Positions 9,836 to 63,944 of a stretch of DNA of 64,000 nucleotides are shown in pieces. How positions within the stretch are numbered: the stretch's first letter is position 1; each line of letters begins with the position of its first letter. The DNA is from Escherichia phage vB_EcoM_MM02. Location of the stretch: sequence record MK373784.1; one strand, written 5' to 3'. A model generated the notes under the pieces. It was given only the letters and a program-made list of their open reading frames with translations, did not search any database and was not told where the DNA came from. The translations under genes were made by a program, and so were the position numbers.

Positions 9836-10065
9836 TGGACGATTTAATTCAAGCTATTAAATCAAACGACCTCGTTGCTACTCGAAAGTTTTTTGAAAGT
9901 GCAATGGCAGAAAAAACGGTTCGTTTGATTGAAGCACGCAAAGCAGAAATCGCTTCTCAATTTTTGATTGAAGGCGAAGAACCTGAAGAAGAAAAGAAAG
10001 CTTCGGAAGACGACGCTGATGAAGGCGATGACGACGAAGACGAAGATGATGAGGACGACGAATAA
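9835..10065 (+). CDS. 67: prohead core protein gp67 with acidic C-terminal tail
   Basis: 76 aa; ATGA overlap with gene 20 stop; poly-Asp/Glu C-terminus; T4 synteny. Confidence 0.8.
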
Positions 10066-13563: not shown

Positions 13564-13587
13564 TCTTAATTGATTAAATCTTATTTT

Positions 13588-13605
13588 GGGAGACTTCGGT
13601 CTCCC
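13588..13605. terminator. intrinsic terminator between convergent gene 23 and the minus-strand small gene
   Basis: gggagacttcggtctccc followed by T-run. Confidence 0.75.
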
Positions 13606-13615
13606 ATTTTTGGTT

Positions 13616-13885
13616 TTATTTCTGTGCAATTTCGATGTAAGTTTTCAAAATATTTTGCCAATTAGGCATACCTTCTTGGACATATGCCGGAGAACCGTCT
13701 TTGTTTTTGAATGATGCAAGTTTATCAGTGGCCCAATAGCCTTTAGCTCGAGCTTCAGAATCAATTTTCATCCATACTTTGTTGAAGGCATTACCATTAA
13801 CTTTTGCACCATATTTTTCTACTAACTTAACTGCTTCAGCTTCCAGAACTTTTAAAGTATCTCGTAAGAAACGTGCTTTAGTCAT
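13616..13885 (-). CDS. hypothetical small early protein on opposite strand between genes 23 and 24
   Basis: 89-aa ORF with ATG at 13885, GAGGAG ribosome-binding site and canonical early promoter (GTTTAC-18-TACTAT) upstream on minus strand. Confidence 0.6.
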   Translation of the reverse strand: MTKARFLRDTLKVLEAEAVKLVEKYGAKVNGNAFNKVWMKIDSEARAKGYWATDKLASFKNKDGSPAYVQEGMPNWQNILKTYIEIAQK

Positions 13886-13915
13886 TTTGTTTACTCCTCT
13901 GTAGTTGATAAGTCT

Positions 13916-13945
13916 ATAGTATCACATACCAAATACGTTGTAAAC
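13916..13945 (-). promoter_or_regulatory. early promoter (-35 GTTTAC, -10 TACTAT) for the 13616-13885 gene
   Basis: minus-strand GTTTACAACGTATTTGGTATGTGATACTAT. Confidence 0.6.
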
Positions 13946-13951
13946 AATCTT

Positions 13952-13959
13952 TATAAATA
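13952..13959 (+). promoter_or_regulatory. late promoter (TATAAATA) for gene 24
   Basis: Exact TATAAATA 28 nt before gene 24 ATG. Confidence 0.7.
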
Positions 13960-13986
13960 ATCTATATCACATAAGGAAAAAATGCA

Positions 13987-23398: not shown

Positions 23399-24567
23399 AA
23401 GTATTCCAACGTCCAGGATATCCTAACTTAAGCGTTAAATTATACCAAGATTATTCGGCTTGGCAAGAAAATAGATACGTTGAACTCGCGGCAACAATAA
23501 CAACTTTAACCATGCGAGATTCGTTATATGGAAGAAATGAAGGGATTCTTCAATTTTATGACACTAAAAACATCCACACTAAAATGGATGGTAGACAGAT
23601 AGTCCAAATCTCTGTTTCAAATTCAAACACACCTCTCCAAGTTAGAACTCGAATTTACGGATGCAGACATTATTCTGTGTCTGTGGACTCAAAAGGTGAC
23701 AATATTATTGCAATTGAGCTTGGAACAATACATTCTATAGAGAACCTTAAATTTGGGCGTCCATTCTTCCCGGATGCAGGCGAATCTATACGTGAAATGT
23801 TAGGTGTCATATACAAAGACCGTGCGTTAATTACTCCGCCAATAAACACTATTAATGCTTATGTTCCTGATATCCCTTGGACAAGCACATTTGATGATTA
23901 TTTGGCATATGTCAGAGAATTAGGACTTGCTACAGCGAGTGATAAGTTCGTATTCGTATGGCAAGATATTTTAGGCGTAAACATGATTGACTACGATACT
24001 CTTATTGGTCAGGAAGGCATTAAGATGATTGTAGGTGAGCCAAATACTGTAGGTCAGTATATTCAAGAGCTTGAGTATCCATTAGTATGGGATTTTACCT
24101 GGATGACTAAAGCCAACCAATTTACAAGAGACCCTATTAAAAACGCCACAATATTCGCCCATTCATTTTTAGATACATCTATTCCGGTTATTGTTACAGG
24201 TGATGGTGATAATGCTATTCTTGTGTCAAGATCCGGCGGATATTCCGAAATGACCTATCGTAATGGATTTGAAGAAGCAAGTCGTCTTCAGACAATGGCT
24301 CAATATGACGGATATACTAAATGCACTACTACAGGCAATTTTAACATAACGCCTGCTACTAAAATTATATTTGTTGACCAAAAGAACCAATTCAAATCCG
24401 AATTTTACGTAGATGAAGTTATTCATGAGTTATCAAATAACAACTCACAAACTCATCTGTACATGTTTACCAACTCAATGGTGTTAGAACCTGTTAACCC
24501 AGTTAAGGTTAAAAATGAACTTAAATCTGATTCTACCTCTAAAGAAAATAATTCTACCACAATCTAA
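23395..24567 (+). CDS. 27: baseplate hub protein gp27
   Basis: 390 aa (T4 391). Confidence 0.9.
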
Positions 24568-25048
24568 TAAAAAGGTAATGATTCCCAAATTAGGGCTCAA
24601 ACATTATAATCTTTTAAAGGACGTTAAAGGCCCTGATGAAAACATGAAAATCTTAGCTGATTCTATTTGTAAAAATATGAGTCCCGCAGATTTTGATTTT
24701 GCATGTCTACACATATTGGAATTTAATAACAAACTTAAGTCTGAAGTTGAAAAAGACGGATTCACTTATAAACTAGATGACGTCTATGTATGCCAACGAA
24801 CAGAATTCCAATTCCAAGGTAATACTTTTTATTTTAGACCCCCAGGCAAATTTGAACAATTCGCTACAATCAGTGAAATGCTATCAAATTGCTTAATAAA
24901 AGTTAATGACGAAGAGAAAGAAATTTCTTTCCTTGAGATGCCTGCTTTTGTAATCAAATGGGCAGAAGACCTTTCGACAACTATTGCTATTCCAGGCCCT
25001 AATGGTCCTATTAAGGGTGTAGCAGAAATTATTGGATTGCTTGAATGA
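24515..25048 (+). CDS. 28: baseplate hub distal subunit gp28
   Basis: 177 aa as in T4. Confidence 0.85.
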
Positions 25049-26872
25049 AACCTGAAGAAATGAAATCCATGCGTAGAAATAAGGTCATTGCCGATAATAA
25101 ACCACAAAAAGTAGCTGCAACAGCAGCTACCGATTCATTAGAAGCATTGAATGACATTTCATCAAAACTAGACGATGTCCAAGCCGCGTCTGAACTCACA
25201 TCACAAAGTGTAGAAGATAAAGGCAATGGAATCATTGAATCAATTGGAGACTTAAAGAATTCGACAGATAATACAAGGCAATGGAATCATTGAATCAATT
25301 GGAGACTTAAAGAATTCGACAGATAATACTGCTGAAGGCACAGAGCTTATCGCAGAAGTTATTGAAAAACAAACTGAAGTCACTAAAAGTATAAACGAAG
25401 TTTCTAGTGCAATAAGCTCTAAGTTAGACCGATTAGCTACATTATTAGAGCAAAAATTACAAACATCTACCGCTATTCAAAATACAGGAGGCACCTCTCT
25501 TGAAGTAATTGAGAACGCAATACCTGTTAAAGTGGTTGAGAATGAAACTTCTGATGAGTTGTTTAAAGCATTCCCTACACCTGAAAAGATTGATAATAAG
25601 CCAGACGAAGATTTCTTCCCAGCACCGGTTCAAGAAAGTGCTAATTCTACTTCCGATTCTAAAGGCGGAATTAGCTTTAAATTGAGCGATAAAATTGCAA
25701 TGCTCACCAAAACAGTTCAAACCGGGTTTAATAAATCAATATCAATTTCAGACAGAATTGCTGGAATGCTTTTCAAATACACTATAACGGCTGCTATTGA
25801 AGCAGCAAAAATGGCCGCACTTATTCTTGGTATTGTTATCGGTATTGATTTATTGATAGTCCATTTCAAATATTGGACAGACAAGTTCACTTCTGCCTGG
25901 GATTTATTTGATGAAAACTTTACTAAATTCTCTGACGAAGCTAAAGAGTGGGGTAAATTCTTAAGTGATATATTCACTTCTATTGACTCTATAAAACAAT
26001 TGTGGGAAGCTGGAGACTGGGGTGGTTTAACCGTTGCTATTGTCAAAGGTGTAGGAACAGCATTAATGAATTTAGGTGAACTAATTCAATTAGGAATGGC
26101 TAAACTCTCCGCGTCTATATTGCGTGCTATAGGTTTTGGTGATACCGCTGACGAAATAGAAGGACGTGCTTTGGAAGGATTCCAAGAAACTACTGGGAAC
26201 AAATTAAAGAAAGAAGACCAAGAGAAAGTCGCTAAATATCAAATGAAGCGTGACGATGGGGAATTAGGAACCGTTTCTAAAGGCCTTGATATGTTACAAC
26301 GTGGCAAAACATTCGTTACTAACTGGGTTCGTGGTAATGACAATAAAGAAGAGTTTAGTACAAGCGATGAGCGTGCTGCGGAATCAGCAAAATTAAAAGA
26401 GTTACCTGAAGAGGAGCGTAAAGAGGCGTATATAAAAGCTAATGAAACTCGTGCGGCACTGGTTAGATTTGAGGATTATATCGATAAAATCGATATGACT
26501 AATCCAGAAAATGCTAAAAACGTCGAGAAGTCTTATGCTGATTTAAGTAAACTTATTAAAGACCCTGAACTTAATAAAACTCCTGTTGTTAAAAAGGAAT
26601 TAGATGCTAGATTTGAAAAGCTAAATAATAAAATGGCTGAAGCCAAAAAGGCTCAGACCACAGTTAAGCCTGAATCTTCGTCTAAATCTCCGGAAGCAAA
26701 ACAAGTTCAGTCAATAGAGAAAGGACGTGCTTCTGAATCTAAACAACAGCAACCGGTAGCGGCGATTAGTAACACAAATAATGTCGTCAAAAAGAATACC
26801 GTAGTCCAGAATATGACCCCTGTAACAAGTACAACGGCTCCTGGAATTTTCCATGCCACCGGTGTTAATTAA
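25045..26872 (+). CDS. 29: baseplate hub / tail length determinator gp29, reading frame interrupted by a 55-bp tandem duplication (frameshift at 25275, premature TGA at 25291-25293)
   Basis: N-terminal 82-aa ORF (frame 1) and 446-aa ORF (frame 2) are joined in one frame if one 55-bp repeat copy is removed, giving 590 aa, the T4 gp29 length. Confidence 0.8.
25220..25329 (+). repeat. perfect tandem direct duplication, 2 x 55 bp, inside gene 29
   Basis: 25220-25274 and 25275-25329 are identical (aaggcaatggaatcattgaatcaattggagacttaaagaattcgacagataatac). Confidence 0.95.
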
Positions 26873-26880
26873 GGATTATT

Positions 26881-27990
26881 ATGATTAGTGTAAAAGAAAT
26901 AGTAGTAGATGCAAAGGATTTAAATAAAGCAATCCCAGTCACAGAAAGTGCTGGGCAAAGCACTAAAACCGAAACAACTACTAAAACTTATGTTGCTCAA
27001 TTTCCTACAGGAAGAGCAGCCGGAAATGACTCCACAGGAGACTTCCAGGTAACAGACCTTTATAAGAATGGATTATTATTTACCGCGTACAATATGTCTG
27101 CACGCGATTCAGGATCCCTCAGGAATTTACGTCCGGCATACGCCGGGACTTCATCTAACGGTATCATATCAGATTTAACTGATAATGTGAAAGATGCAGT
27201 GACTAAATTCTCTAATGGGTTGCTTCCTGCTGGAGCTAATAAATCAACCATAAATAAAACTCCTGTTGCTAATATACTTTTGCCACGTTCCAAATCTGAC
27301 GTTGATACAACTTCACATCGTTTTAATGATATCGGTGATAGTCTTATTACTAAAGGTGGAGGTACTGCTACGGGTGTTTTAAGTAACATTGCTTCTACTG
27401 CAGTCTTTGGTGCATTAGATTCTATTACCCAAGGGCTTATGGCCGATAATAACGAACAGATTTATACGACTTCTCGTAGTATGTATGGCGGTGCTGAGAA
27501 CCGTACTAAAGTCTTTACATGGGATTTAACTCCGCGTTCAACTGAAGACCTTATGGCTATTATAAACATTTACCAGTATTTTAACTATTTCTCATATGGT
27601 GAGACCGGTAAATCACAGTACGCCCAAGAGATTAAAAGTTATTTAGACGAATGGTACCGTTCAACGTTTATTGAGCCTATGACGCCAGATGATGCAGTAA
27701 AAAATAAGACATTGTTTGAAAAGATTACTGCGTCATTAACAAATGTATTAGTTGTAAGCAACCCTACAATTTGGATGGTTAAAAACTTTGGTTATACGTC
27801 TAAATTTGATGGATTAACTGACGTATTTGGTCCATGTCAAATTCAAAGCGTACGTTTTGATAAAACTCCAAATGGACAATTTAATGGTCTCGCTGTTGCT
27901 CCTAACTTACCATCAACATTTACGTTAGAGATAACAATGCGAGAAATTATTACATTAAACCGTTCTTCACTTTATGCGGGGACTTTCTAA
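26881..27990 (+). CDS. 48: baseplate tail tube cap gp48
   Basis: 369 aa (T4 364); synteny. Confidence 0.88.
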   Translation: MISVKEIVVDAKDLNKAIPVTESAGQSTKTETTTKTYVAQFPTGRAAGNDSTGDFQVTDLYKNGLLFTAYNMSARDSGSLRNLRPAYAGTSSNGIISDLTDNVKDAVTKFSNGLLPAGANKSTINKTPVANILLPRSKSDVDTTSHRFNDIGDSLITKGGGTATGVLSNIASTAVFGALDSITQGLMADNNEQIYTTSRSMYGGAENRTKVFTWDLTPRSTEDLMAIINIYQYFNYFSYGETGKSQYAQEIKSYLDEWYRSTFIEPMTPDDAVKNKTLFEKITASLTNVLVVSNPTIWMVKNFGYTSKFDGLTDVFGPCQIQSVRFDKTPNGQFNGLAVAPNLPSTFTLEITMREIITLNRSSLYAGTF

Positions 27991-38293: not shown

Positions 38294-38875
38294 TTATTCA
38301 CCACAAAAGTTTCGGATTTGTTCCCAATTCAGAGAACGAAGATTATTACGAGAGTACTGAATTACTTCAATACCGGCTTGTTTTAGAATGTCTGCCCAAT
38401 TTTCAGGAGATCTGTCATATAATTCTGCGTATACAACCTTTTTAATACCTGACTGTGTAATAGCTTTAGTGCAATCAGGACACGGAGAAAGCGTAGTATA
38501 TAACGTAGCACCTTCAATAGAATTACCTTTACGAGCTGCAAACAAAATTGCATTCAGTTCCGCATGGATTTCGTTATTAGCAGACCATGCACTATGAGCG
38601 GCCCGATGTTCTTTAGCCAAAACAAAATTATCTGCCCGTCCAAATGCTGTAGTGCCTTCTTTATGCCCAGCAACGATGACCGGGCTTGGTTTATTCTTCA
38701 ACCAACCGTTTTCGGATGCATGTTCGCAACAGTTTGTACCACCTGAAGGAGAGCCATTATAACCTGTAGAAATAATGCGTCCATCTTTTTCAATGACGGC
38801 GCCAACTTTCCATGAACAACATTTTGATTCTTGAGAAATCAGATATGCAATCTGAAGGTATGTGCTAGCTTTCAT
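38294..38875 (-). CDS. cd: dCMP deaminase
   Basis: 193 aa as T4 Cd; zinc-binding deaminase motifs HAELNAI and PCPDC. Confidence 0.92.
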   Translation of the reverse strand: MKASTYLQIAYLISQESKCCSWKVGAVIEKDGRIISTGYNGSPSGGTNCCEHASENGWLKNKPSPVIVAGHKEGTTAFGRADNFVLAKEHRAAHSAWSANNEIHAELNAILFAARKGNSIEGATLYTTLSPCPDCTKAITQSGIKKVVYAELYDRSPENWADILKQAGIEVIQYSRNNLRSLNWEQIRNFCGE

Positions 38876-39867
38876 TATTGAACCTTATTAATATAAGTTA
38901 ACAGCTCTTTAGTTTGTTCCCAACTGATGCACGCATCGGTAACGGAAACGCCATAGGACATATTATCAGAAATTTTTTGATTTCCTTCATGTAGGAATGA
39001 TTCTATCATAATTCCTTTGACCAAATCATTAGCTGCTAAATTTTTACCAATACCAATTTGATTGCTATAATGTCCATCAGCGTTTGCATGGCTACAGTCA
39101 ACCATTACATAATGATTCAGACCTACTGCACTTGCTTTGTTAGAAGCTTCTTGAATATCAGAAGAATGATAGTTCGGGCCGTTGGTCCCGCCACGCAATA
39201 CGATATGCGTATTCTGATTACCTTCAGCTTCAACAATGCCTACAGTACCATCGACGTCCATACCCATATACCGATGAGGCCAGGCGGCACTATACATCGC
39301 GTCTGTAGCTACTTTAATAGAACCATTGGTTGCGTTCTTGAAGCCTACGCACATCGGTAGACCTGAAGCAATTTCACGATGTGTCTGACTTTCAGTCGTA
39401 CGGGCGCCAATAGCAACCCATGAGAAAATACCAGAAAGATACTTAATCGTGAATGGGTCTAATACTTCAGTTGCTAATGGAAGTCCCATACGTAGAAGTT
39501 TACGACACAATGTTCGTGCAACTATAAGACCGTGGTTCATATCAAAACTTCCGTCAAGATATGGATCATTTACAAGACCTTTCCAACCTACGGTAGTTCG
39601 AGGCTTTTCAAAATAAACGCGCATCACTAACAGAACATTAGGAAGACGAGTTTGAAGTTCAGCCAGACGTTTGCCGTATTCAACAGCAGCAATAGGGTCA
39701 TGAATTGAACAAGGACCTACAACAATAAGTTTGCGTGGGTCTTCACCATTCATAATCGAATTAACTTGTTCGCGATGAGAAGCCACTTGTGATGCGTAAG
39801 CTTCCGACAAAGGAATAATCTCGGCCAGTTCTTTTGGAGAAATAAGTTTTCCGACGACAGGTAACAT
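38875..39867 (-). CDS. 3-deoxy-D-arabino-heptulosonate-7-phosphate (DAHP) synthase, class I (AroG/AroF/AroH-like)
   Basis: 330 aa; motifs VVGPCSIHD, VYFEKPRTTVGWKGL, GARTTESQTHRE, VMVDCSHAN, SFLHEGNQ and DACISWE align with E. coli AroG; stop overlaps cd start (TAATG). Confidence 0.85.
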   Translation of the reverse strand: MLPVVGKLISPKELAEIIPLSEAYASQVASHREQVNSIMNGEDPRKLIVVGPCSIHDPIAAVEYGKRLAELQTRLPNVLLVMRVYFEKPRTTVGWKGLVNDPYLDGSFDMNHGLIVARTLCRKLLRMGLPLATEVLDPFTIKYLSGIFSWVAIGARTTESQTHREIASGLPMCVGFKNATNGSIKVATDAMYSAAWPHRYMGMDVDGTVGIVEAEGNQNTHIVLRGGTNGPNYHSSDIQEASNKASAVGLNHYVMVDCSHANADGHYSNQIGIGKNLAANDLVKGIMIESFLHEGNQKISDNMSYGVSVTDACISWEQTKELLTYINKVQ

Positions 39868-45435: not shown

Positions 45436-46614
45436 TTAGAAATATTTTTTGTATGAATTGATTACATTTTGGTCTACATCATTATCAATTTGTGCGACAA
45501 GATAAGAACTGATTTCAACTTCTTGTGGGGCTGCTTGAACCAAATCAGAGTTCAAATACTCACGAATCCATGGAATAGGATGACGAGTTGATACGTCTTT
45601 AAGAGGACATGGCAGACCACAACTACGCATACGAGACACGGTAAGATAATCCACAAATTCACTTAGGATTTTAACATTTAGACCTGGAAGAGCACCATCT
45701 TTAAACAAGTGTTCAGCCCATTCTTTTTCTTGAGCGTTAACTTCCATGAAAATATCAACTGCTTCTTGTTCACACTCTTGAGCAATTTTGACCCATTCAT
45801 CACTGTCTTCGCCATCTTGTAAAGCACGAATAATATATTGAGTACCCTTGAGGTGGAGTTGTTCGTCACGAGCAATGAACTTCATAATCTTTGCATTGCC
45901 TTCCATAATTTCCATATTTTTATGGAAGTTAAAGGTACATGCAAATGATACGTAAAAACGAATAGCTTCTAAGGCATTAATAACGTGCAAACAGAGGTAA
46001 AGAGATTTCATTAGCTCACGCTTCCAATATGTCTCATGCTCAATAGCATCTTCAATAACGTCTTCGTCTGCATTAATTTCTTTTTGGTATTCGATATCAG
46101 CTTTAGCGTTTTCCCAATAACGAGCTTTAACCAGAACATCATCATAATATCGTCCGATAGATTCGGCACGCTTCATAATAGCTTCATCTAATACAATCTC
46201 ATCAAACACCTTCGATGGATCTGTATAAAGATTTCGCATAATATGAGTATATGAACGAGAGTGAATAGTTTCACTGAAAGTCCATGTAGCAACCCATGTA
46301 TCTAATGAAGGGTCTGAAAGCAATGACATAAGTACCGCAGATGGTGCTCTACCTTGGATAGAATCTAATAATGATTGATACTTAAGGTTGTTGGTAAAGA
46401 TGTCCTGTTGGAACTGTGGAAGCTTATTAAACTGGGCCGAATCCAACATCAAGTTTACTTCCTCGGGACGCCAAAAGAACGAGAGCTGCTTTTCGATAAG
46501 CTCTTCAAAAACTTTATGACGCTGAATATCATACCGTGCGAGGCCAAGACCAGAACCAAAGAACATCGGTTCATTCAAAACATCGACTTGTTGTGTGTTA
46601 AAAACTGTACTCAT
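45436..46614 (-). CDS. nrdB: ribonucleotide reductase small subunit, uninterrupted (no intron)
   Basis: 392 aa from first ATG (MSTVFNT...); ferritin-like R2 architecture; position beside nrdA. Confidence 0.88.
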   Translation of the reverse strand: MSTVFNTQQVDVLNEPMFFGSGLGLARYDIQRHKVFEELIEKQLSFFWRPEEVNLMLDSAQFNKLPQFQQDIFTNNLKYQSLLDSIQGRAPSAVLMSLLSDPSLDTWVATWTFSETIHSRSYTHIMRNLYTDPSKVFDEIVLDEAIMKRAESIGRYYDDVLVKARYWENAKADIEYQKEINADEDVIEDAIEHETYWKRELMKSLYLCLHVINALEAIRFYVSFACTFNFHKNMEIMEGNAKIMKFIARDEQLHLKGTQYIIRALQDGEDSDEWVKIAQECEQEAVDIFMEVNAQEKEWAEHLFKDGALPGLNVKILSEFVDYLTVSRMRSCGLPCPLKDVSTRHPIPWIREYLNSDLVQAAPQEVEISSYLVAQIDNDVDQNVINSYKKYF

Positions 46615-46668
46615 TATATTTCTCACTTAGTTATTAACTCATCCATGAGTAAATTATAATAAAAAGTC

Positions 46669-60806: not shown

Positions 60807-63800
60807 ATGGCTACATTAAAACAGATACAATTTAAAAGAAGCAAAGTGGCAGGAGTTAATCCTACTGCAGCACAATTAGCCGAAGGCGAATTAGCGATAA
60901 ACTTAAAAGACCGAACTCTTTTTACTAAAGATGACCTCGGTAATATTATTAGCCTAGGCTTTGCTAAGGGTGGGGATATTAACGGTAATGTAACTCAAAC
61001 TGGTGATTATTTACAAAACGGCACGTATAATCTCAATGGAAATCAGTTTGTTTATGCAGGAAAATACATTGAATTTTTACCTAAAACCACTGGAAATGGC
61101 GCTTGGGCTAACCAACATTCGAATAAAGCCCCTATCTTTACAGATTTAAGTTCAACTACTTCTGTTTCAGAATACCATCCACTGATTAAACAACGCTATA
61201 AAGATGGAACTTTTTCTGCTGGTACATTAGTAAACGAAGGTAGTTTTAAATTCCATTATATTGATGAAACCGGGACTTCAAAATACTGGACTTTTAATCG
61301 AAACGGTAATTTTCAAGTTGATTCCGGAAGTTTATTAGTATCTAATGGATATTTAGTTACTCAAAGTAATATTGAAACTAAAGCTGGTTCTTTAATTGGT
61401 CCTAAAGTTATTACCAAAAATATCAATGTGAGCACTAAATCTTGGGACACTAATATTGATACTGCATATGATTTAGTTTCATTACCGACTTGGCACTATA
61501 CTCCAACCGAAACAGATTTGGATACTAATGGTATAAACTACCTTCGTAAATTCCGCGGACATGTTTCTTCTGCTATTTTCCATGAAGTTGCTGATGCTCG
61601 TTCAGGTAAACCACAGAATATTTCGTATTGGACGGGACGTAATGCCGAAGTTTATCAATGGTCTTATACCACAGATGGGCGTATGTCTGTTGCTAATTCG
61701 ATAGGTATAGGTCTTGCTGATGTTGGTGACCAAGGACGTTATCCATTGGTTTCGTTTGGTAAAGGTATTGCAATTGGTGACAATGATACTGGTATTAAAT
61801 GGGTTCGTGACGGCGTTATTGATTTGATTGCTAACGGGGTTTCGACCGGTACAATAAACAGTACTGGTGTTAATAGTACAAAGAAATTAACAGTTGGGTA
61901 TAGCCGTGATTCTGGATCTACTTGGGATTATCCGAATACCAACCAGGCAATGTTCAGCGCTAGAACAGAAGTTGATGGTAATAATAACGGTGATGGTCAA
62001 ACTCACATTGGTTATAGTTCTAATGCTAAGATGTATCATTATTTCCGTGGCGCTGGCCGCATGGCCATCAGCATGGGTGAAGGTCTTATTGTCGAACCAG
62101 GAATTCTTGATATTAAAACCGGTTCAAATTCGTTAAATTTGCGTGCTGATGGTACCATCGCTTCTGTTCAAACGTTAAAACTTAATAATGGATTATATTT
62201 TAATGGTGATGGAACTAATGCTTCTCTAATTTTTAAAGCAGCTTCAGGTATTGATGGTACTAAGCAAATTTTGTGGGAAGGCGGTACTCGTGCAGGTCAG
62301 AACAAAAGTTATGTGACCGTGAAAGCATGGGGTAACTCATTTAATGCTACTGGTGATAAAGCTCGAGAAACCGTATTTGAGGTTTCTGATGGCCAAGGTT
62401 ATTATTTCTATTCTCAACGCGTAGCTCCGACCGGTTCTGAAACTACAGGCCCTGTTGTAACTCAGTTCAATGGACAGGTTAATGCTAGAGGAAGCTTAAT
62501 AACCGACGGAAGTCTTAGAGTTAACGGATTAAGCACTCTAGTTGGCAACGTTACAATGAATAATGGATTGTTTGTTCAAGGTGGTGCCTCAATTACCGGA
62601 CAGGTTAAAATTGGCGGGACTGCTGATGCTTTCCGTATTTACGATGCTGAATATGGTGCTATTTTCCGTCGTTCTGAAGATAAGTTTTATATTATCCCTA
62701 CACCTAAAGATACAGGTGAATCTGGCGGTATTTCCAACCTTCGACCATTTACCATGACATTAAGCACTGGTAAAATGGAATTTAAACACGATGTTGGTAT
62801 GGGCGATAATGGTTCAGGTGGGAGTATTCTTTTTGTAGATAATACTAATAAAGCTACTACTAATAATGGGCGTATTATTGTTAATATGGCGTCAGATGCT
62901 ATTGTTTTGAACGCCCCTAACCAAGAATCATCTAACTTTATTCAAGGACGTAAAGCCAATGTAACCAAATGGTACCTTGGTATTGGCGATGGCGGCAACG
63001 TCGTTCGTATGCACAACTACACGTATGCGCATGGAATAGCTTTAAACTCTGATTCTGTTGATATCACTAAACCATTGAAAGTTGGTTCTATCCAGTTAGG
63101 TACGGACGGTAACATCACTGGCGGTACTGGTAACTTTGCCAACTTGAACACCACAATAAATAACCTTAAGACGGATATCGTCTCAAGTTATCCAATTGGC
63201 GCTCCGATTCCTTGGCCTACTGATACACCTCCTGAAGGTTATGCCATCATGGAAGGTCAAACATTTGATGTCGACTTGTATCCTAAGTTAGCTGCAGTGT
63301 ATCCTTCCGGCTCTCTGCCTGATATGCGCGGTCAGACGATTAAAGGTAAACCATCCGGACGTGCAGTATTAAGTACAGAAGCAGATGGTGTTAAGTCACA
63401 TAGCCATAGTGCAAGTGCATCAAGCACAGATTTGGGTACTAAGACCACTTCTAGTTTTGATTACGGAAGCAAAACGACTTCAAGCTTTGATTATGGTACT
63501 AAGACCAGTAATACCACTGGCAACCATAACCATACAGTGAGTGGTAATACTAGTTCCGCTGGTGCGCACCAACACGCGCGTTCAGGTCCTCAGATACAAG
63601 CCGGCATACCCAATAACATATTCTATGACGGATATAATAGTGTAGGTGCAAACGCCAACGCTAAATTCACTGGAACCGTGAACGGTGCTACTGCAGGGTC
63701 GAATATAGCCAAAACTTCTTCAGACGGTGCCCACACCCATAGTTGGTCAGGAACTACTAGCGCTACTGGTAACCATGCTCATACTGTGGGTATTGGTGCT

Positions 63801-63944
63801 CATACCCATTCGGTAGGTATTGGTGCTCATTCTCATACTGTTGCAATTGGTTCCCATGGACATACAATAACTGTAAATGCCACAGGAAATACAGAAAACA
63901 CAGTTAAAAACGTTGCTTTTAACTATATCGTTCGTTTAGCATAA
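60807..63944 (+). CDS. 37: long tail fibre distal subunit gp37 (receptor-binding tip with His-x-His repeats)
   Basis: 1045 aa; C-terminal repeats GNHNHTVSG / GAHTHS / GAHSHT / GSHGHT and ending NYIVRLA as I recall for T4-type gp37. Confidence 0.9.

What the first reader, a model, noticed from the sequence alone, without database searches (positions are those of the whole stretch)
25220..25329. Perfect 55-bp tandem duplication frameshifts the essential gene 29
Positions 25220-25274 and 25275-25329 are identical. Because 55 is not a multiple of 3, the gp29 frame shifts at the second copy and hits TGA at 25291-25293; the rest of gp29 continues in frame 2 to 26872. Removing one copy restores a single 590-aa ORF, the T4 gp29 length. 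gp29 is essential in T4, so this is either an assembly or sequencing artefact, a freshly arisen and readily reverting duplication, or a conditionally defective genome. No slippery heptamer or pseudoknot is obvious at the junction.
Basis: seen in the sequence. Interest (0 to 1): 0.65.

Follow-up and report, generated by a model that had tools for sequence, protein, structure and literature searches.

The report
Untrimmed 55-bp assembler overlap in gene 29
The perfect 55-bp tandem duplication that breaks the phage's essential tail tape-measure gene is almost certainly a leftover of genome assembly, where a 55-base contig-end overlap was not trimmed before the contig was rotated or joined, and not a feature of the virus.

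Summary
Window 25220-25274 and 25275-25329 are identical (55 bp x 2). They split gene 29 (T4-type tape measure, PF25671) into an 82-aa ORF ending at TGA 25291-25293 and a +1-frame remainder running to 26872. Deleting one copy gives a 590-aa ORF.

The window is a Mosigvirus (RB69/JS09-like T-even coliphage). All 40 listed relatives, of 150 matching records, and 10 independent contigs carry one copy and a 590-aa gp29. The junction is absent from every collection searched. Gene 29 is the only gene broken in the window.

The junction has no microhomology. Nearby 6-bp direct repeats would give 51- or 60-bp duplications, not 55. There is no slip site, bypass landing site or stimulatory RNA structure.

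Fifty-five bases is the end overlap that default SPAdes left on the contig of another T4-like coliphage. Those authors trimmed it before "reopening" the genome. Skipping that trim, or concatenating graph-adjacent contigs, yields exactly this structure.

Verdict: assembly artefact (about 0.88), not a real feature, low interest. Read mapping or a 196-bp versus 251-bp PCR product would settle it.

The parts
25220..25274 (+). Copy 1 of the 55-bp unit (AAGGCAATGG...GATAATAC). This is native gene 29 sequence, codons about 59-77.
   Evidence: The same 55-mer occurs once in relative mar005P1.
25275..25329 (+). Copy 2, identical to copy 1. The junction 25274|25275 is blunt, with zero microhomology. It is interpreted as the former contig end and start (a k = 55 overlap).
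   Evidence: Junction 30-mer/44-mer absent from the INPHARED phages, IMG/VR, JGI metagenome and GTDB genome collections.
25045..25293 (+). Gene 29 5' fragment as written: 82 aa, ending ...NSTDNTRQWNH then TGA. Matches Pfam T4_Tape_measure profile positions 3-77.
25256..26872 (+). Gene 29 remainder in the +1 frame, open from 25256 with the stop codon ending at 26872. The first canonical start is GTG 25532. Matches T4_Tape_measure profile positions 60-590.
24515..25048 (+). Gene 28 (baseplate hub distal subunit), intact. Its stop overlaps the gene 29 start (ATGA).
26881..27990 (+). Gene 48 (baseplate-tail tube junction), intact. An identical protein is found on 21 other contigs.

Best explanation
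The duplication is an assembly and finishing artefact, not part of the phage DNA. T4-like genomes are circularly permuted and terminally redundant, so a de Bruijn-graph assembler returns one contig whose first and last k bases are identical. With SPAdes or metaSPAdes ending at k = 55, that overlap is exactly 55 bp. If the contig is then rotated ('reopened') to a conventional start without one overlap being removed, the old ends become an internal, perfect, blunt 55-bp tandem duplication at an arbitrary position. The same happens if two graph-adjacent contigs are pasted end to end. Here that position falls in gene 29. The real phage would then have one copy and a normal 590-aa gp29. Shown here: the structure, its uniqueness, the absence of any rescue signal, and the published 55-bp precedent. 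Inferred: the assembler and finishing steps actually used for this genome.
For: (1) The repeat is exactly 55 + 55 bp at 100% identity, with no extension on either side.
(2) A T4-like coliphage assembled with SPAdes 3.12 at default settings gave a contig with 55-bp overlapping ends. One end had to be trimmed before the genome was reopened (PMC8483715). A circular plasmid contig also had ends overlapping by 55 bp (PMC8851603). [quoted passage not shown] The Phage Annotation Guide lists frameshift assembly errors among common problems in submitted genomes and advises checking contigs for duplicated regions (PMC8785237).
(3) All 150 related phage records cover at least 80% of the query, and each of the 40 listed aligns 746 bp to the 801-bp query, so each has a single copy. 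Ten independent Logan, ENA and NCBI contigs have a 590-aa gp29 and no junction.
(4) The junction is absent from four sequence collections.
(5) Gene 29 is the only real gene split when the window's ORFs are compared with two relatives over about 50 kb. Genes in 50-64 kb match annotated lengths. The assembly is therefore otherwise clean, and the lesion is a single structural event.
(6) gp29 is a required hub and tape-measure component (PMC3004832). An out-of-frame disruption should therefore not be the consensus of a propagating lysate.
Against: No reads, assembly metadata or record header are available, so the assembler, its k value and the original contig ends are unknown. The source genome could not be found in any collection, so no independent assembly of the same phage could be compared. 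Perfect identity of the two copies is also expected for a very recent genuine duplication. The 55-bp length match is strong circumstantial evidence but not proof.
Confidence: 0.88

Rival explanations
1. This is a genuine, recently arisen 55-bp tandem duplication in the phage DNA. The mutant is defective in gene 29 and is carried in a mixed lysate by complementation from co-infecting wild-type genomes, or was caught before reversion.
For: Tandem duplications do arise in T-even phages (established genetics, from my own knowledge). Two perfectly identical copies fit a very recent event. Nothing in the sequence alone forbids it.
Against: The junction has zero microhomology. The only 6-bp direct repeats flanking the site are 51 and 60 bp apart and would template in-frame duplications, not a 55-bp one. 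A lethal allele would have to be the majority genotype to reach the consensus. It is unique among the 40 listed relatives, 10 independent contigs and four collections. A natural event has no reason to match an assembler k value exactly.
Confidence: 0.06
2. The duplication has another technical origin unrelated to a k = 55 graph overlap. Examples are a long-read circularisation or polishing error, a manual editing slip, or a deliberately altered sequence.
For: It produces the same outcome (a perfect tandem copy that is not in the virus). The provenance of the window is unknown, and the source is not in any collection.
Against: Long-read circularisation errors are rarely exactly 55 bp, and they usually come with homopolymer indels elsewhere. 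None breaks another gene here. The length coincides with the documented SPAdes overlap.
Confidence: 0.04
3. The duplication is real and is tolerated because full-length gp29 is made by recoding. This would be either a +1 frameshift at CAU-UGA (25288-25293) or a gene 60-like ribosomal hop over 55 nt, helped by the low copy number of gp29 per virion.
For: A +1 shift anywhere in 25256-25293 would restore the downstream frame. A stop codon follows the last sense codon, and a weak 5-bp hairpin (25279-25292) spans it. Only about 3 gp29 copies are needed per tail.
Against: No frame-0 codon in the 38-nt zone can re-pair in the +1 or -2 frame, and there is no homopolymer run of 4 or more. No matching landing codon restores the frame after take-off at CAU. 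The local RNA fold is not better than shuffled controls (z = -1.58). A recoding signal cannot have evolved for a lesion that exists in only one sequence.
Confidence: 0.02

Closest known systems
SPAdes/metaSPAdes k-mer-length end overlaps on contigs of circular or circularly permuted genomes (e.g. T4-like phage 132, 55 bp, PMC8483715; '127 bp artefactual DTRs', PMC9331655, PMC5923482)
   Same: An exact repeat whose length equals an assembler k value (55). The genome type (T4-like, circularly permuted) is one that assembles as a closed contig. The position is arbitrary, and the lesion has no biological correlate in relatives.
   Different: In those reports the repeat sits at the two contig ends and is trimmed. 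Here it is internal and tandem, as expected if the contig was rotated or joined without trimming. The assembler used for this genome is not known.
Engineered in-frame duplications and deletions in T4 gene 29 that lengthen or shorten the tail (Abuladze et al. 1994, recalled from my own knowledge, not retrieved here)
   Same: The same gene and the same type of change (an internal duplication in the tape measure).
   Different: Those are in frame and give viable phage with altered tail length. This one is 55 bp (18.3 codons), out of frame, and truncates the protein at residue 82.
T4 gene 60 translational bypass (a 50-nt hop) and the prfB-type +1 frameshift
   Same: A coding gap or frame change in a T-even or E. 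coli context, with a stop codon immediately after the last in-frame sense codon.
   Different: There are no matched take-off and landing codons in the right frame, no +1 re-pairing codon, no significant structure and no conservation.
Spontaneous slippage duplications between short direct repeats (classical T4 rII and lysozyme frameshift spectra, from my own knowledge)
   Same: A short tandem duplication that causes a frameshift.
   Different: Such events are typically bounded by microhomology. Here there is none, and the local repeats predict 51- or 60-bp units.

Membership tests
De Bruijn-graph k-mer overlap artefact (untrimmed contig-end overlap) | The two copies are 100% identical and directly adjacent. 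| tested here: met
De Bruijn-graph k-mer overlap artefact (untrimmed contig-end overlap) | The repeat length equals the assembler's final k (55, 77 or 127 for SPAdes). | tested here: met
   The unit is exactly 55 bp with no extension. A 55-bp overlap is documented for default SPAdes on a T4-like phage and for a circular plasmid contig.
De Bruijn-graph k-mer overlap artefact (untrimmed contig-end overlap) | The genome is of a kind that closes on itself in assembly (circular or circularly permuted). | tested here: met
   The window is a Mosigvirus (T-even) by about 98.6% identity to annotated genomes. Circular permutation of T4-like phages is established knowledge and is seen.
De Bruijn-graph k-mer overlap artefact (untrimmed contig-end overlap) | The second copy is absent from the underlying reads, and the assembler and k are recorded in the metadata. 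| not testable with these tools
   No reads or record header are available, and the source genome was not found.
Slippage or illegitimate-recombination tandem duplication (genuine mutation) | Microhomology at the duplication boundaries. | tested here: not met
   There is 0 bp on either side. Local 6-bp repeats are spaced 51 and 60 bp apart, not 55.
Programmed +1 ribosomal frameshift (prfB type) | A P-site codon able to re-pair in the +1 frame next to a stop or hungry codon, with an upstream stimulator, conserved among relatives. | tested here: not met
   No re-pairing codon in 25256-25293. The lesion is absent from all relatives examined.
Gene 60-type translational bypass | Matched take-off and landing codons that restore the frame, a stop after the take-off codon, and a take-off stem-loop. 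| tested here: not met
   The stop is present, but no CAU/CAC landing site gives the correct frame. There is only a 5-bp hairpin, and the fold z-score is -1.58.
T4 gp29 tape-measure/baseplate hub protein (Pfam PF25671) | A full-length match to the family profile, with synteny between genes 28 and 48. | tested here: met
   The fragments match profile positions 3-77 and 60-590. The gene order 27-28-29-48-54 is as in annotated relatives.

The most novel reading that the evidence does not exclude
The duplication is physically present in a viable phage, and enough full-length gp29 (only a few copies per virion) is made from the broken template. This could happen by an unrecognised low-efficiency +1 shift or 55-nt hop between the twin codons of the two copies, or the phage could persist as a rapidly reverting population.
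Probability: 0.02. Interest if true: 0.7.

Novelty: not a real feature. Interest (0 to 1): 0.06.

Why it matters
As biology it does not matter, because the phage almost certainly has a normal tape-measure gene. It matters as data quality. The record would carry a false pseudogene or split CDS in an essential structural gene and a genome length 55 bp too long. That can mislead pangenome, core-gene and therapeutic-phage screening pipelines. A perfect tandem repeat of exactly 55, 77 or 127 bp in a circularly permuted phage genome is a simple, generalisable flag for this class of error.

Tried and rejected
(1) Finding the same phage elsewhere failed. I tried exact-protein look-ups of both gene 29 fragments, gp37 and Hoc, and junction scans of the phage, IMG/VR, JGI metagenome and GTDB genome collections. 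All were negative, so no independent assembly of this phage could be compared.

(2) A generally error-prone assembly is rejected. Apart from antisense or differently bounded stop-to-stop ORFs, only gene 29 is split in the comparison with two relatives. The small indels relative to those genomes do not break any other real gene.

(3) A +1 or -2 frameshift is rejected. There is no re-pairing codon and no homopolymer run.

(4) Gene 60-like bypass is rejected. There is no in-frame landing codon.

(5) A stimulatory RNA structure is rejected. The fold z-score is -1.58, which is not significant.

(6) Reinitiation giving a functional split gp29 is rejected. The first canonical start in the downstream frame is GTG 25532, about 40 nt from the nearest AGGAGG (25486-25491). 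It would remove residues about 78-144 of a protein that acts as one continuous ruler.

(7) Slippage between local direct repeats is rejected. The spacings are 51 and 60 bp, not 55.

(8) Two literature searches failed on term syntax.

Full report
OBSERVATION. Window 25220-25274 and 25275-25329 are the same 55 bases (AAGGCAATGGAATCATTGAATCAATTGGAGACTTAAAGAATTCGACAGATAATAC). Tandem Repeats Finder reports period 55, 2.0 copies, 100% matches and score 220, by far the strongest array in the 64 kb, where the next scores 94. The period-55 identity does not extend one base further on either side. The chance expectation is about 5e-25. The ORF starting at ATG 25045 reads through copy 1, shifts frame at the junction, and stops at TGA 25291-25293 after 82 aa. 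The downstream frame is open from 25256 and ends at 26872. Deleting one copy gives a single 590-aa ORF.

WHAT THE LOCUS IS. The window is a T-even coliphage of the genus Mosigvirus (RB69/JS09-like). An 801-bp query around the site hits 150 phage records at 95-99.8% identity. A 24-kb query is 98.6% identical to JK45, mar005P1 and APCEc01. Gene order is 51-27-28-29-48-54, as annotated in those genomes ('baseplate hub subunit, tail length determinator'). The two fragments match the Pfam T4_Tape_measure profile (PF25671) at positions 3-77 (E = 1.4e-20) and 60-590 (E = 2.3e-203). The 18-position overlap is the duplicated segment. gp29 is the hub and tape-measure protein, present at about 3 copies per tail, and tube length is thought to depend on it (PMC3004832).

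COMPARATIVE EVIDENCE.
- All 150 related records cover at least 80% of the query. Each of the 40 listed aligns 746 bp to the 801-bp query, so each has one copy.
- Ten independent contigs (Logan assemblies of sequencing runs, an ENA metagenome and an NCBI genome) encode a gp48 identical to the window's. All have a 590-aa gp29 and none has the junction.
- A 44-mer or 30-mer spanning the junction is absent from the INPHARED phage records, IMG/VR, JGI metagenomes and GTDB genomes.
- The phage itself could not be found. There is no exact record of either gene 29 fragment, gp37 or Hoc, and the best genome identity is 98.6%. No independent assembly of the same isolate was therefore available.

IS THE ASSEMBLY GENERALLY POOR? 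No. I compared stop-to-stop ORFs of two relatives with those of the window. Gene 29 is the only real gene that is split. The other flagged cases are antisense ORFs or differences in upstream stop position. Genes in 50-64 kb have the lengths annotated in KAW3E185. Small indels against those two genomes do not break any other real gene. The lesion is a single structural event in an otherwise clean sequence.

ANATOMY OF THE JUNCTION. There is zero microhomology. The base before copy 1 differs from the last base of the unit, and the base after copy 2 differs from the first. The single-copy sequence does contain 6-bp direct repeats around the site (AGATAA 51 bp apart, AAGGCA 60 bp apart). Slippage between them would give in-frame 51- or 60-bp duplications, not a blunt 55-bp one.

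CAN THE BROKEN GENE BE RESCUED?
- A +1 (or -2) shift would have to occur in the 38 nt between the last downstream-frame stop (TAA 25253) and TGA 25291. None of the 13 frame-0 codons there can re-pair in the +1 or -2 frame, and there is no run of four identical bases.
- A gene 60-type hop from the codon before the stop (CAU 25288) finds only CAC or CAU landing sites in the wrong frame. The copy 1 codons that do have twins 55 nt downstream are not followed by a stop or any evident pause.
- The local RNA folds no better than shuffled controls (z = -1.58). The only hairpin is a 5-bp stem that is native sequence.
- The first canonical restart codon in the downstream frame is GTG 25532, about 40 nt from the nearest AGGAGG. 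It would delete about 65 residues of a protein that works as a continuous ruler.
- A recoding signal cannot have evolved for a lesion seen in one sequence only.

MECHANISM PROPOSED. Fifty-five is a de Bruijn-graph k value. A genome announcement for another T4-like coliphage (phage 132) states that SPAdes 3.12 with default parameters gave a contig with overlapping ends of 55 bp. The authors took this to indicate a circular genome, trimmed one end, and then 'reopened' the contig to match T4 (PMC8483715). A circular plasmid contig likewise had ends 'overlapping by 55 bp' (PMC8851603). [quoted passage not shown] The Phage Annotation Guide advises inspecting contigs for duplicated regions and lists frameshift assembly errors among common problems in submitted genomes (PMC8785237).

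If the trimming step is omitted and the contig is rotated, the former ends become an internal, perfect, blunt tandem duplication of exactly k bases at an arbitrary place. The same happens if two graph-adjacent contigs, which also overlap by k, are simply concatenated. This accounts for every property seen here: the length, the perfection, the lack of microhomology, the indifference to reading frame, the uniqueness, and the otherwise clean assembly. The steps shown are the structure, its uniqueness, the lack of rescue signals and the published precedent. The step inferred is that this genome was assembled and finished in that way.

RIVALS. A genuine recent duplication carried in a mixed lysate cannot be excluded without reads. 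It is disfavoured by the blunt junction, the mismatch with local repeats, the need for a lethal allele to dominate the consensus, and the coincidence with an assembler constant (about 0.06). Another technical origin is possible (about 0.04). Recoding is very unlikely (about 0.02).

VERDICT. It is not a real biological feature and its interest is low (0.06). Its value is as a curation flag, and it is settled by read mapping or a 196-bp versus 251-bp amplicon.

Noticed in passing
window 38875-39867 (- strand): A 330-aa ORF with a strong match to the DAHP synthetase I family (PF00793, E = 6.8e-75), lying between the cd and pseT regions. The gene is annotated in JK45 but is absent from mar005P1. 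It is therefore a presence/absence auxiliary metabolic gene among near-identical Mosigvirus genomes.
   Followed up: partly
window 45436-46626 (- strand): nrdB is one uninterrupted ORF here, as in mar005P1. In JK45 it is annotated as two NrdB pieces separated by an intron-associated endonuclease gene. This is a mobile intron / homing endonuclease polymorphism.
   Followed up: no
window 13564-13986: The spacer between genes 23 and 24 is short, as in mar005P1, and lacks the segD-like homing endonuclease ORF that JK45 carries there. Alignment in this spacer is riddled with 1-3 bp indels.
   Followed up: no
window 60807-63944, repeat at 63774-63841: The distal tail-fibre gene 37 (Collar and gp37_trimer domains) ends with a 27-bp x 2.5 imperfect repeat. 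It is the most divergent part of the window: the best relatives are 94-96% identical over 50-64 kb, and no exact protein is on record.
   Followed up: partly
window 10009-10062: A GAC/GAA (Asp/Glu-rich) 18-21-bp repeat array in the prohead-core gene region, with a 6-bp in-frame length difference from relatives nearby.
   Followed up: no
L001 (MK962757.1, Shigella phage JK45): JK45 is labelled Tequatrovirus in its record. Yet it is 98.6% identical over 24 kb to this window, at the same level as genomes labelled Mosigvirus. The taxonomy label looks inconsistent.
   Followed up: no
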